In this document: positions 733 to 49,174 of the stretch, in pieces | Layout: every line of letters begins with the position of its first letter | Numbering within the stretch: position 1 is the stretch's first letter | Sequence record: LT961732 | Length of the DNA stretch: 51,811 bases | Strand: one strand, 5' to 3' | Source of the DNA: Escherichia phage SECphi27 | The notes under the pieces: generated by a model | What the model was told of the DNA's origin: nothing | What the model saw: only the letters and a program-made list of their open reading frames with translations | Databases searched by the model: none | Program-made: the position numbers and the translations under genes

Positions 733-990
733 ATGAAAAAAGAGAGAAGCGTTTATTTAAATGAAACTGGCGAGTGGTTGTTATTTCGCGCTATGGTGTG
801 CGATGCAATTGATAAAAACCCTAACGTGAAAAAGATGATTGATTGCGATCCGTGGGAATTTTCAAGCGCATTAGATATGAGCTTTGATGAGACAAGAAAA
901 CTCCCTCTTGAAAAATGGCACGAACAAATCAGAAATGATATGCAAGATTTTGTAGATTCGTGGAATTTTCAGAACGGAATGATCCACTAA
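733..990 (+). CDS. hypothetical protein
   Basis: 85-aa ORF; stop abuts conserved intergenic motif. Confidence 0.5.
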   Translation: MKKERSVYLNETGEWLLFRAMVCDAIDKNPNVKKMIDCDPWEFSSALDMSFDETRKLPLEKWHEQIRNDMQDFVDSWNFQNGMIH

Positions 991-1009
991 TAGCACTTTT
1001 TGTTAAAAC
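991..1009 (+). promoter_or_regulatory. Conserved intergenic motif TAGCACTTTTTGTTAAAAC, forward class, followed by hairpin, CATAAT and CATCGAAACGA
   Basis: Motif directly after TAA stop; hairpin gcccggc/gtcgggc 1010-1028; cataat about 1029; tcatcgaaacga 1039-1050. Confidence 0.6.
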
Positions 1010-1059
1010 GCCCGGCATTTTGTCGGGCATAATTATTTCATCGAAACGAACGTGAGGAA

Positions 1060-1245
1060 ATGAAAATGGTAGTATATAGCAAGAAAGCATTTGACCAGGC
1101 GCAACAAGTCGCACGCGAGGCGGTAAAAGGTGGAACGAAAAACAATATGCAGCTTGATTGGGGCGCTGCAATGATTCTACTTCGCGTTGCATATGGTCAC
1201 TACCCATTAGAATTTGCGGAGGCATATTATAAGCATGAAGGTTGA
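1060..1245 (+). CDS. hypothetical protein
   Basis: 61-aa ORF after GAGG RBS; downstream of motif unit. Confidence 0.5.
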   Translation: MKMVVYSKKAFDQAQQVAREAVKGGTKNNMQLDWGAAMILLRVAYGHYPLEFAEAYYKHEG

Positions 1246-1477
1246 GCAAGGTAGAGAGGCGGTATGGAATCACGCTAAAGAATGCGGAATAGCCGACGAT
1301 ATAAAGAAGATCGCGCAATACTTTGATATTGCAGATGTGAGCATAATTAGCGGCGATAAGATGACTTTCCTCAAGGAAAGGCCGCGAAAAATGGTAAGAG
1401 TTCCAGCAGTTCCAACAAAAATTGATTTCAAAGAGGCAATGGCTAAAATCCGAGAGCCTCGCAAATATTATAAATGA
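1235..1477 (+). CDS. hypothetical protein (start uncertain)
   Basis: ORF track 1214-1477 begins at TTG; first ATG about 1235. Confidence 0.4.
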   Translation: MKVEQGREAVWNHAKECGIADDIKKIAQYFDIADVSIISGDKMTFLKERPRKMVRVPAVPTKIDFKEAMAKIREPRKYYK

Positions 1478-1571
1478 GGATAGTTATCATGTGGCGCTTG
1501 TTTGTTCTACCGTTACCCGTTATCATCGCTGTTACAGTTATGTACCATATAGTGATGAGATAGGTAGAAGA

Positions 1572-2687
1572 ATGAAAAATGTAAAAATTACAGATGAGCA
1601 ATTCAAGATCGAGCGGGCGGCGGGTAAGACATATAAACAGATCGCTCAAGAGTACGGAATGAATGTGAGAAGCGTCGAGCGTCGCGCGGCGCGTCTTGCA
1701 AAGCAAGGCCAGGTATCCACCATTGGAGCGCCTGGTTTTGGCGTTCATGGTGAGTCAGTAATGACTGACAAAGAAGGCAACATAATCCTAAAGTGGACTA
1801 AAACCAGCAAGGATAAAGAGCAATTAGAAGCATTAATGCGCGCAGCAATGGAGGCATTTAGCGAGGAAGTGCCGAGATTAGATCCGGTCACATTACAGGA
1901 GCGCGACTATAACGAAACGCTTTCCTTGTATCCGATCTTTGACATGCACTTAGGCGCTATGGCCCATAAGCACGAATGCGGCGAAAATTGGGATACTGCC
2001 ACGGCAGAGCGCGTTATGAATAACTTTATCGACTATGCTTTAATGTGCGCACCGGATAGCGAAAAGGCTGTCATCCTGATTGGTGGCGATATGCTACATA
2101 GCGACGGCCTGGAGGCGGTTACACCTGCAAGCGGTCACGTACTGGATCAAGATAGTCGATATGCAAAATTGGTTTACGTTGCCATCCGTGCAATGCGACG
2201 CGCAATCAATAAAATGTTGTTAAAGCATAAACATGTTGAAGTCCAGATCGTAGAGGGCAATCATGACCAATCAGGAATGATTTGGCTACGCGCAGCAATG
2301 GCGGCAGCATATGAAAACGAGCCGCGAGTTTACGTTGATGTTTCCCCTCGCGTTGTGCACCACACGCAATACGGAAAAACTTTCCTTGCGTACCATCACG
2401 GGCACACAGTGCGTAAACCGGAGACTTTGCTAATGATGTGCGCGTCAGATTGGCGGGAGGACTTCGGAAACTCAAAAACGATGTATGCGCACGTAGGGCA
2501 CTGGCATCACCAGACCGTGACAGAAACGTCGCTTGGCATCGTTGAGGTGCATAGCACCCTGGCGGCAAAAGACGCATACGCCGCGCGAGGTGGCTGGAGA
2601 TCTCGACGCCGTGCGGCGGTTATCATTTACGACAAAGAGCATGGAGAAGTGGGGCGATTTGTTCACTATCCAGAAATGATGAATTGA
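1572..2687 (+). CDS. HTH domain fused to calcineurin-like metallophosphoesterase
   Basis: N-terminal helix-turn-helix-like segment (KTYKQIAQEYGMNVRSVERRAARL); phosphoesterase motifs GDMLHSDG, EGNHDQ, YHHGH, GHWHH; start moved to ATG 1572 after RBS. Confidence 0.6.
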   Translation: MKNVKITDEQFKIERAAGKTYKQIAQEYGMNVRSVERRAARLAKQGQVSTIGAPGFGVHGESVMTDKEGNIILKWTKTSKDKEQLEALMRAAMEAFSEEVPRLDPVTLQERDYNETLSLYPIFDMHLGAMAHKHECGENWDTATAERVMNNFIDYALMCAPDSEKAVILIGGDMLHSDGLEAVTPASGHVLDQDSRYAKLVYVAIRAMRRAINKMLLKHKHVEVQIVEGNHDQSGMIWLRAAMAAAYENEPRVYVDVSPRVVHHTQYGKTFLAYHHGHTVRKPETLLMMCASDWREDFGNSKTMYAHVGHWHHQTVTETSLGIVEVHSTLAAKDAYAARGGWRSRRRAAVIIYDKEHGEVGRFVHYPEMMN

Positions 2688-2734
2688 TGAATTTTTATTT
2701 AAATCAATGACAAATTAAATCAAAAACTTGCAAT

Positions 2735-2762
2735 GGGGCGGCGTTTGTCGCCTCTTTTTTTT
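2735..2762 (+). terminator. Weak intrinsic terminator-like hairpin plus T8
   Basis: GC hairpin followed by tttttttt after the phosphoesterase gene. Confidence 0.4.
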
Positions 2763-2833
2763 GTTTAATTTTTTTACCATGTACGTTTATCATGCGGTCA
2801 ATATATTGACTTTAATTAATATGGAGAATAAAA

Positions 2834-3049
2834 ATGAAAGATTTTATTAACGCAGCTACCGCCGGATCTGGCGGTTCATCTATCGCAAGCGCCGCTACAG
2901 GGCAGTTAACCATTGCTATTGCCAGCTTTGTTTTAATGGCTGCATTCGGTGCATGGGGCGCTTACCTTCGCTGGCGTGATAGTAAAAAATTCCACGAGGC
3001 GATCGAAAAAGGTGATATTCAAAAAGCTATTGAAATCAGGGGCAAGTAA
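2834..3049 (+). CDS. holin (single-TMD, pinholin-like)
   Basis: 71 aa; one hydrophobic helix with charged C-terminus; immediately upstream of endolysin with TAATG overlap. Confidence 0.6.
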
Positions 3050-3540
3050 TGAGCATAAAGAACAGGGTAGCGGCGGCGGCCTTTGGAGTTGCGGTTGCCT
3101 TGACTTCTCCACTTCTTGAAGAGATCGAAGGGGTAAGATACAAGCCATACAAAGATATTGCGGGAGTATGGACGGTTTGCGCAGGAATCACCGGACCAGA
3201 TGTTATCCTGGGGAAAACGTACACTAAAAAAGAGTGTGATGCTTTGTTGGCTAAGCATATCCAGGTTGCTAAAAAGGAAGTTGACAAGCAAGTTAAGGTT
3301 GACATTCCTGATAGTATGCGTGCAGCAATGTACTCATTCACTTACAATGCAGGTGTGGGAGCTTTCAGAAATTCAACAATGCTGAAACTCATCAACCAGG
3401 GGAAATTAAACGAGGCTTGCGATCAGCTTTATCGTTGGACTTATTACCATAACCCAAAAACAGGAAAGCGCGAGAAGTCTAAAGGCTTATTTAACAGGCG
3501 CAAGGTCGAATACAAATATTGCACAATGGATCTTAAATGA
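3049..3540 (+). CDS. SAR endolysin (T4/P21-type lysozyme)
   Basis: N-terminal Gly/Ala-rich weakly hydrophobic SAR-like helix; E-x8-D-x5-T catalytic triad pattern ([16 protein letters not shown]). Confidence 0.75.
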
Positions 3541-3932
3541 TGAAGAAATTTTTACTTACACCAATCGCAATGGCGGTGATCTTGTCTGGATGTTCAAGCG
3601 TTACGCCACTGACCGGATTAATCGGTAGAAAGCCGGAAATCACAGCACAGGCTGGCGCGGAGAACGTGAAGCAGACAGTTGGCATTACAGCAAAGCAGGA
3701 CGCCAGCACAAAACAGGAAACCACAATAAAGGAATCTGCGGTTGACAAGGTGGACACGTCAAGCAAGAAGGATTTCACAACATCAACCATTCAGGCCAAT
3801 ACCATCAAGGCAGACAAAATTCAGGTCGTGCAGGGTAATAACGGCAGATGGTACGATCCAGTAATCATATGCGTGGTTGTGTTAATTGTGCTGATTTGTC
3901 TTTACTGGAGAGAAAAGAAAAAGGAGGCTTAA
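3537..3932 (+). CDS. unimolecular spanin (u-spanin)
   Basis: N-terminal lipoprotein signal with lipobox LSGC plus C-terminal TMD ([16 protein letters not shown]); ATGA overlap with endolysin. Confidence 0.7.
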
Positions 3933-3949
3933 TGCCTCCTTTATTTTTA
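3922..3949. terminator. Bidirectional intrinsic terminator
   Basis: aggaggc-ttaat-gcctcct hairpin flanked by T-runs on both strands, between convergent genes. Confidence 0.65.
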
Positions 3950-4171
3950 TGCGTCGGGCCACATATGAGTTTCGTTTGTTGGCTTGTTCGATTCGTCGTA
4001 CTGCCTTACTTCAATGCTGCAAGTGTCGCCGTACATTTCTGCAATCTTGCGCTCATTTTCAACCGCCGATTGCTCACTCCAGCCTGAATCCTTATCGTAA
4101 ACTGTCGGGATTTCAGAAGAAGATCCATTTGCATGATTGTATACGCGAACTACTAAAAACTTGCTGGACAT
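3947..4171 (-). CDS. hypothetical protein
   Basis: ORF track 3947-4222; start moved to the Met preceded by an AAGGA RBS and a motif unit. Confidence 0.5.
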   Translation of the reverse strand: MSSKFLVVRVYNHANGSSSEIPTVYDKDSGWSEQSAVENERKIAEMYGDTCSIEVRQYDESNKPTNETHMWPDA

Positions 4172-4233
4172 AATTTTTCCTTTTTTGTTGTTTCGTTTCG
4201 ATGAAACAAATATACCCGACACAAGGTCGGGAG

Positions 4234-4253
4234 TTTTAACAAAAAATGCTATT
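4234..4253 (-). promoter_or_regulatory. Conserved intergenic motif (variant TAGCATTTTTTGTTAAAAC), forward class
   Basis: Followed on minus strand by hairpin cccgac/gtcggg (4216-4232), tatatt, catcgaaacga (about 4186-4198), RBS, ATG. Confidence 0.55.
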
Positions 4254-4369
4254 CCATACGCTTTACTGTAACCAATAACACACCATCATCATTGCATAAA
4301 ACGTGTTCATTGGTGCTAAAAGCGCGCATATCTGAATAAAGCAGCGTAAGTAACGCATGAATAAAATCC

Positions 4370-4765
4370 TCATGTGATATTGAATTTACGGCGCAGTGCT
4401 TCAAGATCTTGTCTATTAGCTTTTGCCTGGAACAATTCATCATCGCCCATCTCCCCTATTCTAGCCATATCCCTGATCCAGTCGTTGCGCATACCATCCA
4501 GGCTATACAATTCGAATCCGAAAGGCCGCTTTGACGATCCTTTGGACCAGTATTTACCGCAGACCCCATCTATATAACCAGCCGTCATCATTCTTGCGCA
4601 AAATTCCTTAGATGCAAGGCTGGCGAACATTCGCGGCGTAAGTCCGGCGGCCCGTGCGAGCCGCTCACATTCTCTATGCTGATAGATAAATTTGGCTATG
4701 TGCTGCCTGTTAAACCAGTCGTATGACTCACACCATTTATACAGATCAAGCAAAAACATAATCAT
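4370..4765 (-). CDS. hypothetical protein (cotranscribed with NTPase)
   Basis: 131 aa; ATGA start/stop overlap with upstream 526-aa gene. Confidence 0.55.
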   Translation of the reverse strand: MIMFLLDLYKWCESYDWFNRQHIAKFIYQHRECERLARAAGLTPRMFASLASKEFCARMMTAGYIDGVCGKYWSKGSSKRPFGFELYSLDGMRNDWIRDMARIGEMGDDELFQAKANRQDLEALRRKFNIT

Positions 4766-6342
4766 CCCAGCAGTATTGGATTGACAAAAATAACACCATT
4801 AATCACGCAAACATAATTTCTTTCTTCCAGCATTGGCAGCAAGTGCCCCTCTATCCTCTTCATTACGCCAGCCTGACCAACGAAAGGTTTTACCTTTCTC
4901 GCTGATTCGTACAGGGCGCGAATATTCAGGATCCCTTTGTTAGCCTTGCCGTGCCTCGTGATCAATTCAATCAATTTACCCATTTCAGCATCATCACCAG
5001 CATAACCAGAAGCATTGGCGGCGCTAATGTATGTTTTGCTCAATTCCTGAAACATGATCAACGCCTCTTGCATTGTTTCCACGTCGATCTCTTTCGACTT
5101 CTGCGGGTATCCGGCAGGATTAAACCAGTTACGGATAACATGCAGGACGGAAGCAAGCCTGATCACCTGTTTATCCATTTTACCCAGCGCACCGCGTAAC
5201 ATTGTATGAGAATACTTTCCGCCGTCTGCAAGATGCGGTTCCATATCCTGGCGAGCAATGTTGAGCACTCGCATAGCTGAACGGCTTATTTTCAGCGATA
5301 TATTTGATTCGCTCATGATGTTATGCACCAATTGATAATATTGGGCTTTCAATTCAGAATCCACCGCCTCATAGGTAGAATCACCATTTTCATCAATGAA
5401 TGAGCGACGGCCTAAGAATGATTCCTCGCGGACCAACAAAAAACGCTCACTAACACCGATGCCTCGCGATCCAGCGTCCATGATTCCGCTTATCGTTTCA
5501 TCCTGGGCTATAACGCTCATGCATCCAAGCGCGCGAAAACTCATATTATTGTCAGCATTAGCACGGGCAATTGATACGTGACCATTATCCCACGCCTTAA
5601 GCACTAACTCACTGTTAGTCTTCCTTTCGCTATTTGCATAGGTCAAGCCTAACAGACTGTTAATACTTGTTGCTTCATCAGATATTACGGCAAAGTTACC
5701 TTGCTTGTTGTTGATTTTCGCCAAGCCTTCTGGAGTTGTATCTGAAACAGGAAAAGTTATATCACACATTTTTTCCAGCTTTTCCTCCAGATCCTCTTTT
5801 TCCTGGTATAGAGATTCCATATCAGCGCCGGATCTTTCGCTTTTCATCTCCTTTGCAAGACCTGCCAGCTTTGCCTGTATTTTCTTTCTTTCCTTGCGGC
5901 GTTGCTCGTTGATCTTCTCAACTTCCGCAATCATCGGAGCAATAGCCATGCTGTTGATCGCAGATTTACCAGTTGACGGCGGCTGGCTTGTAACGACGTA
6001 AAGCGCAGTCGGCTGATCGGTTCCGTGATAGTCAACCGTAAAGCGTCCAAGCATAGCGGCAGAAATGCAGCCGATAAAGTGCATGTAAGCCGATGATTCA
6101 GGGAATTGAACGGATCGCGCAATGCTGCGTGATAACTTGCCGACAACATCAATATCATTACCAAGAGAAATAACGGGGTAGCGATCGTGACCGCTATTCA
6201 CATCCTTTACGTCGCCCCAAAAGCTGGACGACTGGCGATAGCCGTTAGCCTGAATTGATACGCGAACTGGTGAAAGGTTCTGGCTTTCAGCCATAGCGAT
6301 TATTTGCTGTGGAGTTAATTTGTTTGTTTCTAATGAAAACAT
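4762..6342 (-). CDS. P-loop NTPase of unknown function
   Basis: 526 aa; Walker A-like PPSTGKS and Walker B-like FAVISDE separated by a charged coiled-coil insert; RBS AAGGAGAAG. Confidence 0.65.
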   Translation of the reverse strand: MFSLETNKLTPQQIIAMAESQNLSPVRVSIQANGYRQSSSFWGDVKDVNSGHDRYPVISLGNDIDVVGKLSRSIARSVQFPESSAYMHFIGCISAAMLGRFTVDYHGTDQPTALYVVTSQPPSTGKSAINSMAIAPMIAEVEKINEQRRKERKKIQAKLAGLAKEMKSERSGADMESLYQEKEDLEEKLEKMCDITFPVSDTTPEGLAKINNKQGNFAVISDEATSINSLLGLTYANSERKTNSELVLKAWDNGHVSIARANADNNMSFRALGCMSVIAQDETISGIMDAGSRGIGVSERFLLVREESFLGRRSFIDENGDSTYEAVDSELKAQYYQLVHNIMSESNISLKISRSAMRVLNIARQDMEPHLADGGKYSHTMLRGALGKMDKQVIRLASVLHVIRNWFNPAGYPQKSKEIDVETMQEALIMFQELSKTYISAANASGYAGDDAEMGKLIELITRHGKANKGILNIRALYESARKVKPFVGQAGVMKRIEGHLLPMLEERNYVCVINGVIFVNPILLG

Positions 6343-11290: not shown

Positions 11291-11708
11291 GTGAAACCTT
11301 CCCCTCTTGCCTCACTTTTCCGCCTGGCTGTCAGTGGTTGTTGTCTTTTGTTCACCCCTGTTACCGATTTCAGGCGGCGTGTTTCCGCGCGGTTTTCCGG
11401 TGTAGCGAAAACGGAAAAAACAAAGAAAATCCTCTATAATACATTGAAAATAAAGATTATTTATTTATATATATCTATAATGTTTTCTTTTTGTTCTCAC
11501 TGTTACAGTGCTTTTTGTTGGTTATGGTGTGGTTGTGTGTGGGCATATATGGATAGTTGCGCGCGCGGCGGATTGCATATGTATATATACTTTTTCCGGC
11601 GGATTGCGTTAACAGCGTGAACAGAAAAATAACAGCCGCGAAATCAATAACTTGCGCATGATTTTGTAGTTTTTCGATATTGGTAACGTTTTGAATACAA
11701 CAAAAACA

Positions 11709-11736
11709 TTGACACGCACCAAATAGCTTTTATAAT
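11709..11736 (+). promoter_or_regulatory. Near-consensus sigma70 promoter (TTGACA, 16 nt, TATAAT)
   Basis: ttgacacgcaccaaatagcttttataat; about 30 nt upstream of RBS GGAGG and ATG 11768. Confidence 0.65.
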
Positions 11737-11767
11737 GCGCCAACAGTCAACAACTGGAGGAAAGGAA

Positions 11768-12232
11768 ATGGAACAGAAGACCACTAAGGACTATTGCGAT
11801 TGGCTTCGCGAGCTTGGTCGCCGCCTGGCTAGTGGCGATATTGAAGAGTATAAAATGTCACTAATTGACCTGGCCGGAATGTTAAGCGGTGATGACTGCT
11901 ACAAGATCACGCGCAGTTCATCCTACAGCCGGACCATTATCAACCGCGTTCCAGAAGTAAGGGCCGCAGGTCGGGTAAGCATCAAGGTAGAGGAAACGGA
12001 AGATGATAAATTTTACGTTTTCCGCATGGTGCGCGAATCGAAAAGGAAAATCATCACACCCGAAGAATTGCCAGCAATCAAGGCAAGGGCGATCAAAAAG
12101 TTTGCCGATCGCTTACTGGCAGCAATCCCGAACATCGTGGACCTGGAAGGGGATAAACTGGCTGGGGCTTGCGAGGGCGTAAGCCGCTACCAGGATATGA
12201 TCCGCGAAATCATCAAAGAGGAAGAGCAATGA
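11768..12232 (+). CDS. hypothetical protein (first gene of plus-strand block)
   Basis: ORF track 11735-12232; start moved to ATG after GGAGG RBS, because 11735 lies inside the promoter. Confidence 0.55.
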   Translation: MEQKTTKDYCDWLRELGRRLASGDIEEYKMSLIDLAGMLSGDDCYKITRSSSYSRTIINRVPEVRAAGRVSIKVEETEDDKFYVFRMVRESKRKIITPEELPAIKARAIKKFADRLLAAIPNIVDLEGDKLAGACEGVSRYQDMIREIIKEEEQ

Positions 12233-12501
12233 AAAAGGCATTAATCAGCGTTTTGGCGGCAATGGCATTCCTGACCGGATGCAAAGAAGATGGCGCGCAT
12301 GTTGGCAATGTGCAGATGGCTAACCCTGGCGATGACTACAGCGTAAGGGAGCTATTCACCGCTGACGGTTGCACCGTTTACCGATTCTATGACGATCGCA
12401 CTGTTTACTTCACCAACTGTAAGGGCGCTACTAGCTGGGAAGTGTCGAAAAGCAATGGCAAAGGCACGAAGACAGAACATATGACCGTCGAGACAAAATA
12501 G
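12229..12501 (+). CDS. putative lipoprotein
   Basis: Signal peptide with lipobox LTGC; ATGA overlap with upstream gene. Confidence 0.55.
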   Translation: MKKALISVLAAMAFLTGCKEDGAHVGNVQMANPGDDYSVRELFTADGCTVYRFYDDRTVYFTNCKGATSWEVSKSNGKGTKTEHMTVETK

Positions 12502-12517
12502 CACTTTTTGTTAAAAC
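12499..12517 (+). promoter_or_regulatory. Conserved intergenic motif, forward class
   Basis: Begins with TAG stop of upstream gene; hairpin gccaggc/gcctggc; ataat; tcatcgaaacga; RBS; ATG 12574. Confidence 0.6.
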
Positions 12518-12573
12518 GCCAGGCGCGAAGCCTGGCATAATAGCCTCATCGAAACGATATTGGGGAAACAAAA

Positions 12574-12759
12574 ATGGCACGTCGCATCACCAAAGACCTT
12601 AAAGTCCTGAACAAAGAAAACGTAGTTAAAATCCTGGTTATCTGGGGCTACAACGAAGAAACAGCAAAGCAGAAGGTAGAGGCAGGTTATGACCTGGCTG
12701 TAAAAGCAATGCCAAACGATGACGCCAAAGGCATTGCAAACTATGTAGCGTTCTTTTAA
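12574..12759 (+). CDS. hypothetical protein
   Basis: 61-aa ORF after motif unit. Confidence 0.5.
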   Translation: MARRITKDLKVLNKENVVKILVIWGYNEETAKQKVEAGYDLAVKAMPNDDAKGIANYVAFF

Positions 12760-12774
12760 TTAGCAGGTGAATAA

Positions 12775-12960
12775 ATGAAAACGAAATTAGTCCATAAATC
12801 AGAAATCAAGATCGGCGATACTGTGATTCACAACGGCGAGCTTAGAACGGTTGGCAAAGAGTCAATAAGCCACGATGAATTTATGGGGATCTTGTTGTTC
12901 GGTGACTCTTATCGTCTTGGTTACAAGATGGTTGAGCTTGTGGAAGAGGTAAAATTCTAA
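12775..12960 (+). CDS. hypothetical protein
   Basis: 61-aa ORF. Confidence 0.5.
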   Translation: MKTKLVHKSEIKIGDTVIHNGELRTVGKESISHDEFMGILLFGDSYRLGYKMVELVEEVKF

Positions 12961-12961
12961 A

Positions 12962-12980
12962 TAGCACTTTTTGTTAAAAC
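12962..12980 (+). promoter_or_regulatory. Conserved intergenic motif, forward class
   Basis: Follows TAA stop; cataat downstream; RBS GGAG before ATG 13061. Confidence 0.55.
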
Positions 12981-13060
12981 TCAAAAGCGATAACCAGGCA
13001 TAATACACACATAGACGGGCGGCGCGGTGTCGCCCACTAAAACCAATCAGGAGAAATACC

Positions 13061-13954
13061 ATGTTAAAACTTGCTGACATTAAATTCCCGATCACCTTCG
13101 AATCTCGCGGCATTGGTCACTACATTTTTACTGATGAAAAAACATGCCATAAGGTTGATTTGCATAGCTACAAGCGTGCTCCATCAGACATGGATATTGA
13201 TCACTTCATTGATGCACATAACAAGCACTACAACTCGCTTAAAGACTACGGCTACGCAATGCCAGGATATACCAGCTTCCACTACAAGCCATATAAAGGC
13301 CAGGTATTGCCAGTGCGATCGCCGCAGCGCGCAGAGATTCCGATGGTCAACATGAAAACATGCGACTACAAAAAGCTGTGGTGCTTAAGTGTGGACAATA
13401 TCAAGTATCCGATCACGTTCCACACAACTGGTAATTCAACGATTCGCTTCACATCGCGCGACAATGGCGTTTATAGCGATGGTCAGAAATCAGAGTTGAA
13501 AGTTGATTTCTTTGTCAATGCTCACAACGATTTCAATCCGCACAACGAAAAAGATAAAGTGTACTACGTGGAAGACATTACAAAACACTTATTTGGAGAA
13601 ACTCCATTCGGCGGCGGTAAGACGTCAATTCAGAAAATCATTGGCGATGAGATCCACAAAGCGGTTTCCGAAATGAAAGCGCCTGGAGGCTGGCGTATTG
13701 ATAAGAGCGCCTTTGCCAATCAAGAAATCGTAACGCAGGGCGCAATTGAAGATATGCCAGTTGCAGCCACACTAAAAGGAGTCCGGCTTGATGACGGCAC
13801 CTGGTATGAACTAACAGCGAAACCAAAGACGATCGAAATTCATGATGACGTTGTTATCCTCCTGCTTCACTATGGCAGCACAAAAAACCGTACCGTTGCG
13901 GGTGAGATCAACATCAAGCGCGGAACGATGGTTAAGTGGAAGGTCAAAGTGTAA
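13061..13954 (+). CDS. hypothetical protein with internal tandem duplication
   Basis: 297 aa; two related segments (IKFPITFESRG...FIDAHNKHYN and IKYPITFHTTG...FVNAHNDFN). Confidence 0.6.
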   Translation: MLKLADIKFPITFESRGIGHYIFTDEKTCHKVDLHSYKRAPSDMDIDHFIDAHNKHYNSLKDYGYAMPGYTSFHYKPYKGQVLPVRSPQRAEIPMVNMKTCDYKKLWCLSVDNIKYPITFHTTGNSTIRFTSRDNGVYSDGQKSELKVDFFVNAHNDFNPHNEKDKVYYVEDITKHLFGETPFGGGKTSIQKIIGDEIHKAVSEMKAPGGWRIDKSAFANQEIVTQGAIEDMPVAATLKGVRLDDGTWYELTAKPKTIEIHDDVVILLLHYGSTKNRTVAGEINIKRGTMVKWKVKV

Positions 13955-48697: not shown

Positions 48698-49174
48698 TTA
48701 GCTATTCGTGCTGTTATCACCTTTGTAGAATCGTCCGCCTGGTTCGTAGTCTGAATTTTTGACTACGCGCAACATCTCGTATTTGTCGCAACGGGTAGTA
48801 AGAGGCTTACCGTTAGAATCAAACCGAAGATCTGGACGACAAAATGATGCGCGGTATCCTTTGCATCCATTATATTTGTAGTCGTTATGCACCTTTTGTG
48901 CTCCAGCGGCTGAAATCATACCACGCTTTCGCCACTGGTTAACGACTTGCTGAGATACGCGCAGACGTCGAGCCATAGCAGGAACGCCGCCGTAATACTC
49001 GATCAGAATGTCAAGGCGAGATTTCAGGCTTGCTTTTACCTCATCTCGCAGGATAAGAAATCCGGTTCGGTGTTTTCGTGGTTTTTTGTCTTTACCTCGT
49101 CGCGTTCCGTTGTTACCGTTAATAGTGCGCTTGTCGATCTCACCCGTAGATACTGCAATTCGTGCATCTTTCAT
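48698..49174 (-). CDS. HTH DNA-binding protein (putative regulator)
   Basis: 158 aa; helix-turn-helix-like AMARRLRVSQQVVNQWRKRG; basic N-terminus; divergent from helicase gene. Confidence 0.55.
   Translation of the reverse strand: MKDARIAVSTGEIDKRTINGNNGTRRGKDKKPRKHRTGFLILRDEVKASLKSRLDILIEYYGGVPAMARRLRVSQQVVNQWRKRGMISAAGAQKVHNDYKYNGCKGYRASFCRPDLRFDSNGKPLTTRCDKYEMLRVVKNSDYEPGGRFYKGDNSTNS

What the first reader, a model, noticed from the sequence alone, without database searches (positions are those of the whole stretch)
1572..2687. HTH domain fused to a metallophosphoesterase
The N-terminus of this roughly 372-aa protein has a helix-turn-helix-like segment resembling sigma region 4 or terminase-type DNA-binding domains, fused to a calcineurin-like phosphoesterase core (GDxxH, GNHD, GHxH motifs). 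This could be a DNA-tethered phosphatase or nuclease. The ORF track extends the frame to 1422, but that part overlaps the previous gene and has no RBS.
Basis: partly seen in the sequence, partly recalled or inferred. Interest (0 to 1): 0.35.

Follow-up and report, generated by a model that had tools for sequence, protein, structure and literature searches.

The report
T1-type phage HTH-metallophosphoesterase (gp16 family)
This gene really does encode a DNA-binding helix-turn-helix domain fused to an intact metal-dependent phosphoesterase, but it is the ordinary, very widespread phage T1 gp16-type protein, probably a DNA-bound nuclease, whose biochemistry nobody has yet tested.

Summary
Window 1572-2687 (+) encodes a 371-aa protein with three parts: an N-terminal LuxR/sigma-region-4-type HTH (res 8-44), a conserved beta-hairpin/helix connector (56-97), and a C-terminal binuclear metallophosphoesterase (114-366). 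All five catalytic motifs are present. The ATG at 1572 is the true start.

The window is a Warwickvirus (Drexlerviridae, T1-like). The protein is the ortholog of T1 gp16 (PHROG 704, usually annotated 'DNA repair exonuclease' or 'phosphoesterase'). Homologs occur in 2046 phage records and about 4600 protein clusters. The HTH and the metal ligands are kept across the whole family.

Fold and profile searches place it in the metallophosphoesterase superfamily. Mre11/SbcD and PolD-DP1 nucleases are the closest hits, but only marginally (TM about 0.4). The genome has no Rad50/SbcC partner.

Neighbouring genes in diverse phages are mostly DNA replication, recombination, repair or nucleotide-salvage genes: helicase, VRR-NUC, DnaB, SSB, Endo VII, ligase, PNKP-type phosphatase, dNMP kinase, ThyX.

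Best reading: a stand-alone, DNA-tethered nuclease of phage DNA metabolism, possibly the unidentified host-DNA-degrading activity of T1-like phages. No evidence supports cyclic-nucleotide or phosphoprotein substrates. It is a member of a known but uncharacterised family, of modest interest.

The parts
990..1033 (+). Probable promoter of the transcription unit that ends with the HTH-MPE gene. It consists of the 19-nt direct-repeat element ATAGCACTTTTTGTTAAAA (990-1008), a 19-nt GC-rich dyad spacer (1009-1027) and a -10-like CATAAT (1028-1033).
   Evidence: One of 22 copies with up to 3 mismatches in the window, against 2.6 expected. In most copies the element is followed, after a 19-nt spacer, by a TATAAT-like hexamer and then a gene start. 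The same repeat was described for phage TLS (PMC11447400). Promoter function is inferred, not shown.
1474..1563 (+). Unannotated conserved micro-ORF directly upstream of the gene. It encodes a 29-aa hydrophobic peptide, MRIVIMWRLFVLPLPVIIAVTVMYHIVMR. Its ATG overlaps the stop codon of the preceding gene (ATGA).
   Evidence: Equivalent 23-29-codon hydrophobic ORFs, each with the same ATGA overlap, sit at the same position in Hanrivervirus Fulano1, Tlsvirus Mishu and T1. It is read in a different frame from the 1422/1491 extension of the MPE ORF.
1562..1565 (+). Shine-Dalgarno-like AGGT, 6 nt upstream of the ATG at 1572.
   Evidence: Read directly from the sequence.
1572..2687 (+). CDS of the HTH-metallophosphoesterase, 371 aa plus stop. 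It is the ortholog of phage T1 gp16 (ST16) and a member of PHROG 704.
   Evidence: PHROG 704 E=2.4e-148, full length. 99% nucleotide identity to Warwickvirus phages. T1 ST16 shares the synteny. Homolog N-termini support this start.
1593..1703 (+). N-terminal tri-helical HTH (residues 8-44) of the LuxR/GerE / sigma-70 region 4 type.
1737..1862 (+). Conserved connector (residues 56-97): a beta-hairpin (56-65, 71-80) plus a helix (82-97). G69 and W75 are nearly invariant. The element is also present in relatives that lack this HTH (PHROG 284, Vibrio phages).
1911..2669 (+). Binuclear metallophosphoesterase domain (residues 114-366). Motifs: I 1941-1949, II 2082-2099, III 2256-2267, IV 2394-2405, V 2496-2510. 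A family-specific conserved insert, HSDGLEAVTPASGHVLDQDSRYAK (residues 176-199, with invariant T184), follows motif II.
   Evidence: Pfam Metallophos below threshold. Invariant ligands. Foldseek probability 1.0 to many MPE structures, with Mre11 and PolD-DP1 on top.
2735..2764 (+). Rho-independent terminator (GGGGCGGCGTTTGTCGCCTC followed by a T-run). It ends the transcription unit, ahead of the holin-endolysin-spanin cassette.
   Evidence: T1 has an annotated terminator at the same place after ST16.

Best explanation
The gene encodes the Warwickvirus ortholog of phage T1 gp16. It is probably expressed in the early/middle phase, as the last gene of a unit that follows the helicase, VRR-NUC and Dam genes. 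The N-terminal LuxR/sigma-r4-type HTH holds the protein on double-stranded DNA. The C-terminal two-metal (Mn2+/Mg2+-type) phosphoesterase, whose active site resembles Mre11/SbcD and PolD-DP1, cuts phosphodiester bonds in DNA.

It works alone, without a Rad50/SbcC ATPase. Its likely roles are processing DNA ends or structures for recombination-dependent replication, and/or breaking down host DNA so that nucleotides can be salvaged.

**Shown:** domain architecture, intact and invariant catalytic residues, family membership, transcription-unit anatomy, gene neighbourhoods.

**Inferred:** DNA as the substrate, nuclease activity, expression timing, physiological role.
For: 1. The full catalytic motif set is invariant across 141 representatives at 32-57% identity, so the enzyme activity is under selection.
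2. Motif II reads GDxxH, as I recall for Mre11 (from memory). The only MPE entries that the family profile finds in PDB sequences are SbcD/Mre11 and 'Nuclease MPE', weakly at E about 1. The Foldseek top hits for both models are Mre11, followed by PolD-DP1.
3. The HTH is a family-wide feature, which argues for DNA as the binding partner.
4. Neighbouring genes are DNA-metabolism genes in most contexts examined:
   - SF2 helicase, VRR-NUC and Dam in the window and in T1.
   - DnaB helicase immediately downstream in an E. coli lambdoid prophage.
   - SSB and an N-deoxyribosyltransferase-like gene in Vibrio phage F27.
   - 5'-3' exonuclease, Endo VII, a kinase and a PNKP ligase-domain protein in Klebsiella phage Roth32.
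   - DNA ligase and a Holliday-junction resolvase in Campylobacter phage F365.
   - ThyX and dCMP deaminase in an N4-like Ruegeria phage.
   - A translationally coupled HAD-PNKP phosphatase and dNMP kinase in Kagunavirus K1ind2.
5. There are precedents for stand-alone phage MPEs. [quoted passage not shown] A10ZJ24 gp48 disrupts host DNA (PMC12287305).
6. T1 and TLS degrade host DNA and reuse the nucleotides, and the responsible gene is still unidentified (PMC11447400).
Against: - Similarity to nucleases is only at superfamily level (TM about 0.4, 10-15% identity). Non-nuclease MPEs (Rv0805, GpdQ, Vps29, SMPDL3A) score almost as well.
- No biochemical or genetic data exist for any family member.
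- Context is heterogeneous. In several phages the gene sits next to lysis or terminase genes rather than replication genes.
- The family also occurs in temperate prophages, which I would not expect to destroy host DNA. Host-DNA degradation therefore cannot be its universal role.
- In Guernseyvirinae the gene lies in a reverse-oriented, accessory-looking cassette with a superinfection-immunity gene.
Confidence: 0.55

Rival explanations
1. Transcription factor with an attached enzyme. The sigma-r4/LuxR-type HTH binds the roughly 20 copies of the phage-specific promoter element ATAGCACTTTTTGTTAAAA, centred about 41 bp upstream of the start site. It would activate or time the phage's early/middle transcription units, with the phosphoesterase domain serving a regulatory or second function.
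For: - The HTH type is the one used by promoter-binding activators.
- The window holds 22 copies of the repeat against 2.6 expected. Each lies 19 nt upstream of a -10 hexamer with no properly spaced -35, which is the layout of an activator-dependent promoter.
- T1 has the same repeat, and no factor has been assigned to it (PMC11447400).
- In several phages the gene sits at the early/late boundary, directly before lysis or terminase genes.
Against: - The phage also encodes a dedicated Cro/YdaS-type regulator (48698-49174, minus strand), which is an equally good or better candidate.
- The exact repeat was absent from every non-Drexlerviridae locus held at that point, including the Kagunavirus and Dhillonvirus loci that carry a 46-48% identical HTH-MPE. 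Those two loci were only 11 kb each.
- The gene itself lies behind such a promoter.
- Invariant catalytic residues show that the enzyme is the conserved core. Relatives exist with the MPE but a different N-terminus.
Confidence: 0.12
2. Nucleic-acid end-healing enzyme. The phosphoesterase would remove 3'-phosphate or 2',3'-cyclic phosphate ends, as the metallophosphoesterase domain of bacterial Pnkp does. It would work with phage PNKP-type phosphatase, kinase and ligase proteins to repair DNA or RNA damaged by host nucleases.
For: Direct adjacency to a HAD-PNKP phosphatase and a P-loop kinase in K1ind2. Proximity to a kinase and a 'PNKP adenylyltransferase (ligase) domain' protein in Roth32. 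A DNA ligase immediately upstream in Campylobacter phage F365.
Against: - In the window and in T1 the PNK-like phosphatase and the dNMP kinase are encoded about 14-17 kb away in a different unit.
- An HTH is not expected for a tRNA-repair enzyme.
- The K1ind2 kinase matches dNMP kinase rather than polynucleotide kinase, which fits nucleotide salvage at least as well.
Confidence: 0.12
3. Anti-defence phosphodiesterase that destroys cyclic (oligo)nucleotide immune signals (CBASS, Pycsar, type III CRISPR, Thoeris).
For: Some MPE-fold enzymes are cyclic-nucleotide phosphodiesterases. Rv0805 is among the structural hits. The gene lies in an accessory-looking cassette in Guernseyvirinae.
Against: - No hit to any PADLOC model.
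- From memory, the known phage signal-degrading enzymes, Acb1 and Apyc1, use other folds.
- A DNA-binding HTH has no obvious role for a small-molecule substrate.
- The gene is found across Drexlerviridae genera and in temperate prophages, with DNA-metabolism neighbours.
Confidence: 0.06
4. Accessory superinfection-exclusion or inter-phage competition nuclease, working with the small membrane protein encoded just upstream: the Imm-like protein in Guernseyvirinae, or the 23-29-aa hydrophobic peptide in Drexlerviridae.
For: A small hydrophobic ORF lies immediately upstream in both phage groups. The Guernseyvirinae cassette is reverse-oriented inside the tail operon, in the manner of a moron.
Against: The association is absent in most other contexts. 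The gene is conserved across all four Drexlerviridae genera examined, and its neighbours are DNA-metabolism genes. There are no data on exclusion.
Confidence: 0.05

Closest known systems
Phage T1 gp16 (ST16, YP_003929.1) / PHROG 704 'DNA repair exonuclease' family
   Same: Full-length homology (PHROG 704 E=2.4e-148). Same synteny: helicase - VRR-NUC-position gene - Dam - small genes - gp16 - terminator - lysis cassette. Same HTH + connector + MPE architecture.
   Different: Nothing of substance. This is the family the protein belongs to. Its function is only a homology-derived label and has never been tested.
Mre11 / SbcD nuclease (e.g. PDB 4o43, 4tug, 2q8u)
   Same: MPE fold. All five motifs are present, including GDxxH in motif II. 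It is the top Foldseek hit for both models, and among the only MPE hits of the family profile in PDB sequences.
   Different: - Only 12-15% identity, TM about 0.4-0.46, sequence-profile E about 1.
- No Rad50/SbcC partner anywhere in the phage.
- Carries an N-terminal HTH and beta-hairpin/helix connector instead of Mre11's C-terminal capping and Rad50-binding domains.
- Has a family-specific conserved insert after motif II.
Archaeal PolD small subunit DP1 (proofreading 3'-5' exonuclease; PDB 5ihe, 8ppt)
   Same: MPE nuclease preceded by an extra N-terminal nucleic-acid-binding module. Ranks 2-17 in Foldseek. Some database entries for this family are named 'DNA polymerase II small subunit', and the TLS paper lists a 'proof-reading exonuclease (gp66)' that I take, unverified, to be the TLS ortholog.
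   Different: No OB fold and no DP2 polymerase partner. As far as the annotations of JK16 and T1 show, T1-like phages encode no DNA polymerase at all.
Mycobacteriophage Bxb1 gp47 / A10ZJ24 gp48 metallophosphoesterase
   Same: Stand-alone phage MPE with an Mre11/DP1-like fold, encoded among replication genes. Required for phage DNA replication, with weak exonuclease activity (PMC11795197). Reported to disrupt host genomic DNA and so evade defence (PMC12287305).
   Different: 255 aa, no HTH, no connector. Related only at superfamily level (hhalign probability 3.6%, BLASTP E=0.3). gp47 also moonlights as a recombination directionality factor for a serine integrase.
Bacterial 'Nuclease MPE' / PdeM of Lhr-MPE-ligase repair clusters (PDB 6nvo; NCBIfam TIGR04123)
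   Same: Stand-alone MPE named as a nuclease in the PDB entry, and (from memory) encoded beside an SF2 helicase and a ligase. Here an SF2 helicase lies in the preceding unit, and a ligase or ligase-domain gene neighbours the homolog in two other phages. Weak motif-level hits.
   Different: About 216 aa, no HTH. The hits cover only the GNHD motif region (16.6 bits against a cut-off of 150).

Membership tests
Calcineurin-like metallophosphoesterase superfamily (Pfam PF00149 clan) | Five motifs that supply the two-metal site: DxH, GD, GNH[D/E], H, GHxH | tested here: met
   D124xH126, GGD173, GN230H231D232, H276(G)H278 and GH310xH312 are present. The seven key residues are invariant in 141 divergent representatives.
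Calcineurin-like metallophosphoesterase superfamily (Pfam PF00149 clan) | Score above Pfam's gathering threshold for PF00149 or PF12850 | tested here: not met
   16.8 bits against a cut-off of 21.5. Only 26 of 116 homologs match PF00149 at E<0.01. The family is a divergent branch that the Pfam models do not capture.
Calcineurin-like metallophosphoesterase superfamily (Pfam PF00149 clan) | MPE fold | tested here: met
   The AlphaFold model (pLDDT 85.5) matches over 100 MPE structures at Foldseek probability 1.0 and E down to 4e-8.
PHROG 704 / T1 gp16 family | Full-length match to the family profile and conserved synteny in Drexlerviridae | tested here: met
   E=2.4e-148 over residues 5-370 and profile positions 3-389 of 390. 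Synteny with T1 ST16 and JK16 gp09.
Mre11/SbcD nucleases | Sequence-profile membership | tested here: not met
   The family profile hits SbcD/Mre11 PDB sequences only at E=1.2-2.7, over motifs I-II. There are no Pfam or NCBIfam SbcD/Mre11 hits.
Mre11/SbcD nucleases | Partner Rad50/SbcC-type SMC ATPase encoded alongside | tested here: not met
   None is annotated in the near-identical JK16 genome or in T1. The only large P-loop protein with a coiled-coil-like stretch is a DUF3987 helicase-type protein.
Mre11/SbcD nucleases | C-terminal capping domain after the MPE core | tested here: inconclusive
   The protein ends about 5 residues after the last core strands, so there is no room for a capping domain. 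Foldseek alignments cover about 290-300 columns at TM about 0.4-0.46. No residue-level superposition was available.
Mre11/SbcD nucleases | Mn2+-dependent exo/endonuclease activity on DNA | not testable with these tools
   Requires biochemistry.
LuxR/GerE / sigma-70 region 4 HTH | HTH profile match and a helical DNA-binding fold | tested here: met
   Below threshold in this protein (18.4 bits against 25.7). Clear in homologs: Sigma70_r4_2 1.5e-9, GerE 2.4e-8. The family profile hits GerE at E=0.023. Three helices are modelled at pLDDT about 86-91. DNA binding itself was not tested.
Bxb1 gp47-type phage MPE (RDF / replication factor) | Detectable homology beyond the shared catalytic motifs | tested here: not met
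   hhalign probability 3.6% over motifs III-V only. BLASTP E=0.32.
Known anti-phage defence or counter-defence protein families (PADLOC-DB) | Match to any model | tested here: not met
   No hit for the window protein or for two homologs (P0056, P0299). The fourth query, P0340, gave only weak N-terminal HTH-region hits at E>=0.02.
PolD DP1-type proofreading exonuclease | OB-fold plus MPE, with a cognate DP2 polymerase | tested here: not met
   The region N-terminal of the MPE is an HTH plus a hairpin/helix element, not an OB fold. No polymerase gene is annotated in the phage.

The most novel reading that the evidence does not exclude
The HTH-MPE (T1 gp16 family) is the long-unidentified nuclease behind host-chromosome degradation and nucleotide reuse in T1-like phages. 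Classical T1 mutants with this defect show raised generalized-transduction frequency. The HTH might target the enzyme, or might spare phage DNA by docking on the roughly 20 phage-specific promoter repeats. One protein would then couple host-DNA destruction to phage promoter recognition.
Probability: 0.15. Interest if true: 0.55.

Novelty: new member of a known kind. Interest (0 to 1): 0.3.

Why it matters
The gene is ordinary for this genome. Near-identical copies are already deposited and annotated.

The family is nonetheless large: 2046 phage records and about 4600 clusters at 50% identity, spanning Drexlerviridae, Guernseyvirinae, Dhillonvirus, Vibrio, N4-like and Campylobacter phages and many prophages. 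It is strictly conserved at its active site, and it has never been characterised.

Assigning its activity would:
- replace thousands of inconsistent annotations ('DNA repair exonuclease', 'phosphoesterase', 'DNA polymerase II small subunit', 'Rrf2 family transcriptional regulator', 'HTH luxR-type domain-containing protein', 'hypothetical protein');
- possibly identify the host-DNA-degrading enzyme of T1-like phages, which is relevant to transduction risk in therapeutic Drexlerviridae;
- show how an Mre11-like nuclease core can work without a Rad50/SbcC partner by using an HTH tether.

Tried and rejected
- **Single-sequence phmmer against PDB sequences:** only chance hits.
- **PADLOC:** no hits for the window protein.
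- **An operator for the HTH in the 94-nt upstream region:** only short GTTATCAT repeats were found. CCGTTAYC is enriched genome-wide (9 copies against 1.8 expected) but scattered inside genes. This region turned out to encode the micro-ORF, so the repeats are best read as coding sequence.
- **An RNA hairpin pairing 1502-1511 with the SD/start at 1563-1572:** MFE -29.5 kcal/mol, z = -2.08, 6 of 200 shuffles as good. Too weak to claim.
- **The idea that the protein replaces the small terminase subunit:** prompted by L019, where the gene overlaps the TerL start. Rejected as a general role, because T1-like phages and Dhillonvirus Lust have a recognisable TerS as well.
- **Same family as the characterised mycobacteriophage MPE (Bxb1 gp47 / A10ZJ24 gp48):** rejected. 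The relationship is only at superfamily level.
- **A universal small-membrane-protein partner upstream:** holds only in Drexlerviridae and Guernseyvirinae.
- **Literature searches for functional data on T1 gp16 or its homologs:** nothing found. The PUA-Cal-HAD paper and the Avs paper were checked and are unrelated.
Full report
**What the window is.** The 51.8-kb window is essentially a complete T1-like phage genome of the genus Warwickvirus (Drexlerviridae, Tempevirinae). Region 1200-2900 is 99% identical to phages ExeQuayColi, Tuinin, JLBYU01, JK16, tonn and others. In those records the gene under study is called 'DNA repair exonuclease', 'putative phosphoesterase' or 'hypothetical protein'.

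**Checking the observation: the ORF and its start.** The ORF 1422..2687 (+) exists. Database records disagree on its start. RefSeq JK16 uses the TTG that corresponds to window 1422, and JLBYU01 uses the GTG at 1491.
- In an alignment of 22 homologs at 60-92% identity, 20 begin within three residues of this Met.
- PHROG 704 aligns from residue 5 to profile position 3.
- An AGGT Shine-Dalgarno sequence lies 6 nt upstream.
- The 94-nt 'spacer' upstream is not empty. It holds a conserved micro-ORF in a different frame: 1474-1563, encoding the 29-aa peptide MRIVIMWRLFVLPLPVIIAVTVMYHIVMR. Its ATG overlaps the stop of the preceding gene (ATGA). Equivalent 23-29-codon hydrophobic ORFs with the same ATGA overlap occur at the same place in Hanrivervirus Fulano1, Tlsvirus Mishu and T1, although the nucleotide sequences have diverged.

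**Checking the observation: the domains.**

The HTH is real.
- In this protein the Pfam hits are below threshold: Sigma70_r4_2 at 18.4 bits against a cut-off of 25.7, plus HTH_28 and HTH_23.
- In 116 divergent family members, HTH models hit repeatedly and well: Sigma70_r4_2 1.5e-9, GerE 2.4e-8, HTH_8 2.6e-7, HTH_1 4e-6.
- A family profile matches the GerE and RhlR HTH among PDB sequences.
- 138 of 141 representatives align over residues 8-45.
- AlphaFold2 with an 84-sequence alignment (mean pLDDT 85.5) gives three helices (8-16, 21-28, 32-44) at pLDDT about 86-91.

The phosphoesterase is also real.
- The five motifs are D124-x-H126, GGD173-x-x-H176, GN230H231D, H276-G-H278 and GH310-x-H312.
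- D124, H126, D173, N230, H231, H276 and H312 are invariant in 141 representatives that share only 32-57% identity with the query.
- The Pfam Metallophos model itself scores below threshold (16.8 against 21.5 bits). The family is therefore a divergent branch of the superfamily.

Two further conserved elements are family-specific. One is a beta-hairpin plus helix connector (residues 56-97, with G69 and W75 nearly invariant). The other is an insert after motif II (HSDGLEAVTPASGHVLDQDSRYAK, with invariant T184). The insert is modelled with the lowest confidence in the protein.

**What family it is.** The protein matches PHROG 704 ('DNA repair exonuclease') over its full length at E=2.4e-148. It is the ortholog of T1 gp16 (ST16), which has identical synteny: helicase, ST21, Dam, three small genes, ST16, terminator, then the lysis genes.
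- tblastn finds homologs in 2046 of 50,697 phage records. These include Drexlerviridae of Escherichia, Klebsiella and Salmonella, Guernseyvirinae (Jerseyvirus, Kagunavirus), Dhillonvirus, and Vibrio, Rhizobium, N4-like Ruegeria, Campylobacter and Flavobacterium phages.
- An exhaustive HMMER scan of 1.84 billion representatives gives 4605 clusters at E<=1e-3 and 1039 at E<=1e-30.
- Prophage copies occur in E. coli and Paraburkholderia.
- The fusion is therefore not a peculiarity of this genome. It is the hallmark of a very large family that has been catalogued but never characterised.

**Relation to solved structures.**
- A single-sequence search against PDB sequences finds nothing.
- The family profile finds, for the enzyme part, only SbcD/Mre11 and the bacterial 'Nuclease MPE', all weakly at E about 1-3.
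- Foldseek with both models puts Mre11 first (M. jannaschii 4tug, then T. maritima 4o43). PolD-DP1 is close behind. Rv0805, GpdQ, Vps29, YfcE and SMPDL3A lie within one or two orders of magnitude, and TM-scores are only about 0.4-0.46.
- In the viral structure library the best matches are uncharacterised phage proteins.
- The fold therefore places the protein in the superfamily and leans toward the nuclease branches, but it does not decide the substrate.
- Motif II reads GDxxH, which is the Mre11-type spacing as I recall it.
- The phage has no Rad50/SbcC-like partner. The only candidate large P-loop protein is a DUF3987 helicase-type protein.

**Anatomy of the locus.** The gene is the last cistron of a short transcription unit.
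- A 19-nt repeat element, ATAGCACTTTTTGTTAAAA, lies at 990-1008. It is followed by a 19-nt GC-rich dyad and a CATAAT -10 at 1028-1033.
- Next come two small genes of unknown function (PHROGs 2180 and 2817), the micro-ORF, and the HTH-MPE gene.
- A strong rho-independent terminator at 2735-2754 closes the unit ahead of holin, endolysin and spanin.
- The preceding units encode an SF2 helicase, a VRR-NUC nuclease and Dam methylase.
- The repeat element occurs 22 times in the window against 2.6 expected. It nearly always has the same 19-nt spacing to a TATAAT-like hexamer and no properly spaced -35.
- It is the repeat already described for phage TLS, whose binding factor is unknown (PMC11447400). 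T1 has it too.

**Gene neighbourhoods elsewhere.** Two kinds of context recur.

DNA replication, recombination, repair and nucleotide-salvage genes:
- E. coli lambdoid prophage: repressor / cro / replisome organiser / ANT / HTH-MPE / DnaB helicase, with an 18-nt gap before DnaB.
- Vibrio phage F27: SSB / MPE / nucleoside-2-deoxyribosyltransferase-like.
- Klebsiella phage Roth32: 5'-3' exonuclease / Endo VII / HTH-MPE / hypothetical / kinase / PNKP ligase-domain protein.
- Campylobacter phage F365: Holliday-junction resolvase ... DNA ligase / MPE.
- N4-like Ruegeria phage: dCMP deaminase ... ThyX / MPE.
- Kagunavirus K1ind2: a reverse-oriented, translationally coupled cassette inside the tail operon, made of an Imm-like membrane protein / HTH-MPE / HAD-PNKP 3'-phosphatase / dNMP kinase.

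Module boundaries next to lysis or terminase genes:
- Dhillonvirus Lust (lysin, hypothetical, HTH-MPE, TerS, TerL), a Paraburkholderia prophage, a Rhizobium phage and several metagenomic contigs.
- Contig L019, where the gene overlaps the TerL start.

**Mechanism.** The most economical reading has three parts. The HTH docks the protein on duplex DNA. The binuclear centre hydrolyses DNA phosphodiester bonds. The enzyme then serves phage DNA metabolism, either through end or structure processing for recombination-dependent replication or through host-DNA breakdown that feeds nucleotide salvage.

T1-like phages appear to rely on the host polymerase. They encode RecE/Erf/SSB, helicases, a primase and VRR-NUC. 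The salvage link comes from the dNMP kinase, the PNKP-type phosphatase, ThyX and the deoxyribosyltransferase-like gene seen next to homologs.

Published precedents for stand-alone phage MPEs point the same way.
- Bxb1 gp47 is needed for phage DNA replication, has an Mre11/DP1-like predicted fold and shows weak exonuclease activity (PMC11795197).
- A10ZJ24 gp48 disrupts host genomic DNA (PMC12287305).
- Those proteins are related to the present family only at superfamily level (hhalign probability 3.6%). They are analogies, not orthologs.
- The TLS re-annotation paper states that T1 and TLS degrade the host genome and reuse its nucleotides, and that the responsible gene products have not been identified. 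T1 gp16 is a reasonable candidate for this.

That narrower idea has a clear weakness. The family is also common in temperate prophages, so host-DNA destruction cannot be its general role.

I put about 0.55 on 'DNA-bound nuclease of phage DNA metabolism'. The specific host-degradation role gets about 0.15.

**Rivals.**
- *Regulator reading (about 0.12).* The sigma-r4/LuxR-type HTH, the roughly 20 orphan activator-style promoter repeats, and the frequent position at the early/late boundary allow a reading in which the protein is, or is also, the factor that binds those promoters. Three points count against it. The phage has a separate Cro/YdaS-type regulator. The exact repeat was not found in the Kagunavirus and Dhillonvirus loci held at that point, although only 11 kb of each was searched. 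The enzyme core, not the HTH, is the most conserved part of the family.
- *Pnkp-like end-healing role (about 0.12).* This is suggested by the PNKP-type neighbours.
- *Superinfection-exclusion role with the upstream small membrane protein (about 0.05).* The association is limited to two phage groups.

**Verdict.** The feature is a member of a known, heavily populated and already annotated phage family, the T1 gp16 / PHROG 704 family. Within the characterised MPE nucleases it is a distinct architecture: an HTH-tethered enzyme with no Rad50/SbcC partner. Its biochemistry is unknown.

Interest is modest at 0.3. A specialist would not be surprised by the gene. The size and conservation of the family, the open question of the T1 host-DNA nuclease, and the unassigned promoter repeats still make it a reasonable target for a simple biochemical and genetic test.

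Noticed in passing
window 1474-1563 (+): Unannotated micro-ORF encoding a 29-aa hydrophobic peptide, MRIVIMWRLFVLPLPVIIAVTVMYHIVMR. Its start overlaps the stop of the preceding gene (ATGA). It is conserved in position, hydrophobicity and the ATGA overlap in Hanrivervirus (L021:499), Tlsvirus (L022:502) and T1 (L020:40740, between ST17 and ST16). It has no PHROG match.
   Followed up: partly
window 990, 4234(-), 6396(-), 7070(-), 9104(-), 9831(-), 11135(-), 12498, 12961, 13955, 15397, 16898, 18192, 22411, 27034(-), 30787(-), 41564(-), 47624, 49186, 51675: About 20 copies of ATAGCACTTTTTGTTAAAA. Most are followed by a 19-nt spacer that is often a GC-rich dyad differing in sequence between copies, and then by a TATAAT-like -10 and a gene start. 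The element would be centred near -41, which is the layout of an activator-dependent promoter. The repeat is known from phage TLS (PMC11447400) and is also present in T1. Its binding factor is unknown. The spacer dyads were also flagged as terminator-like, for example 1010-1028.
   Followed up: partly
window 1422-1571; NC_049814.1 5466 and OK272478.1 5535: Public records give three different starts for this gene: TTG at 1422, GTG at 1491 and ATG at 1572. The two long versions overlap the upstream gene and the micro-ORF, and are very likely mis-annotations. A 193-member protein cluster (P0001, 398 aa) carries the GTG-start extension.
   Followed up: yes
L024 (Kagunavirus K1ind2) 11381-13777, minus strand; L025 (Jerseyvirus demigod) 2747-5131: In Guernseyvirinae the HTH-MPE gene lies in a reverse-oriented cassette inserted in the middle of the tail-gene operon. 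It is preceded by an Imm-type superinfection-immunity membrane protein. In K1ind2 it is followed by a translationally coupled HAD-PNKP 3'-phosphatase and a dNMP kinase.
   Followed up: partly
L026 (Klebsiella phage Roth32) 1512-6297: The gene string is 5'-3' exonuclease, Endo VII, HTH-MPE, hypothetical, P-loop kinase, 'PNKP adenylyltransferase (ligase) domain' protein. It resembles a bacterial Pnkp repair enzyme split into separate genes.
   Followed up: no
L019 7001-9816 (marine metagenome contig): The HTH-MPE gene overlaps by 4 nt the start of the large terminase subunit gene, in the position usually held by the small terminase subunit. No TerS was recognisable nearby.
   Followed up: partly
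window 1502-1511 and 1563-1572: A 10-nt inverted repeat (TTGTTCTACC / GGTAGAAGAA) would pair with the Shine-Dalgarno sequence and start codon of the HTH-MPE gene. The RNA fold of 1478-1600 gives -29.5 kcal/mol, z = -2.08. This is weak evidence for translational occlusion.
   Followed up: partly
window 1200-2900: Megablast listed 20 Campylobacter phage records among 45 hits in the 60-80% identity band. This is unexpected for a coliphage segment. It may reflect the A/T-rich stretch around the terminator. It was not examined.
   Followed up: no
window 48698-49174 (-): A 158-aa Cro/YdaS-type HTH protein lies between the primase and helicase genes and is divergent from the helicase. It is the phage's other HTH protein and an alternative candidate for binding the promoter repeats.
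   Followed up: partly
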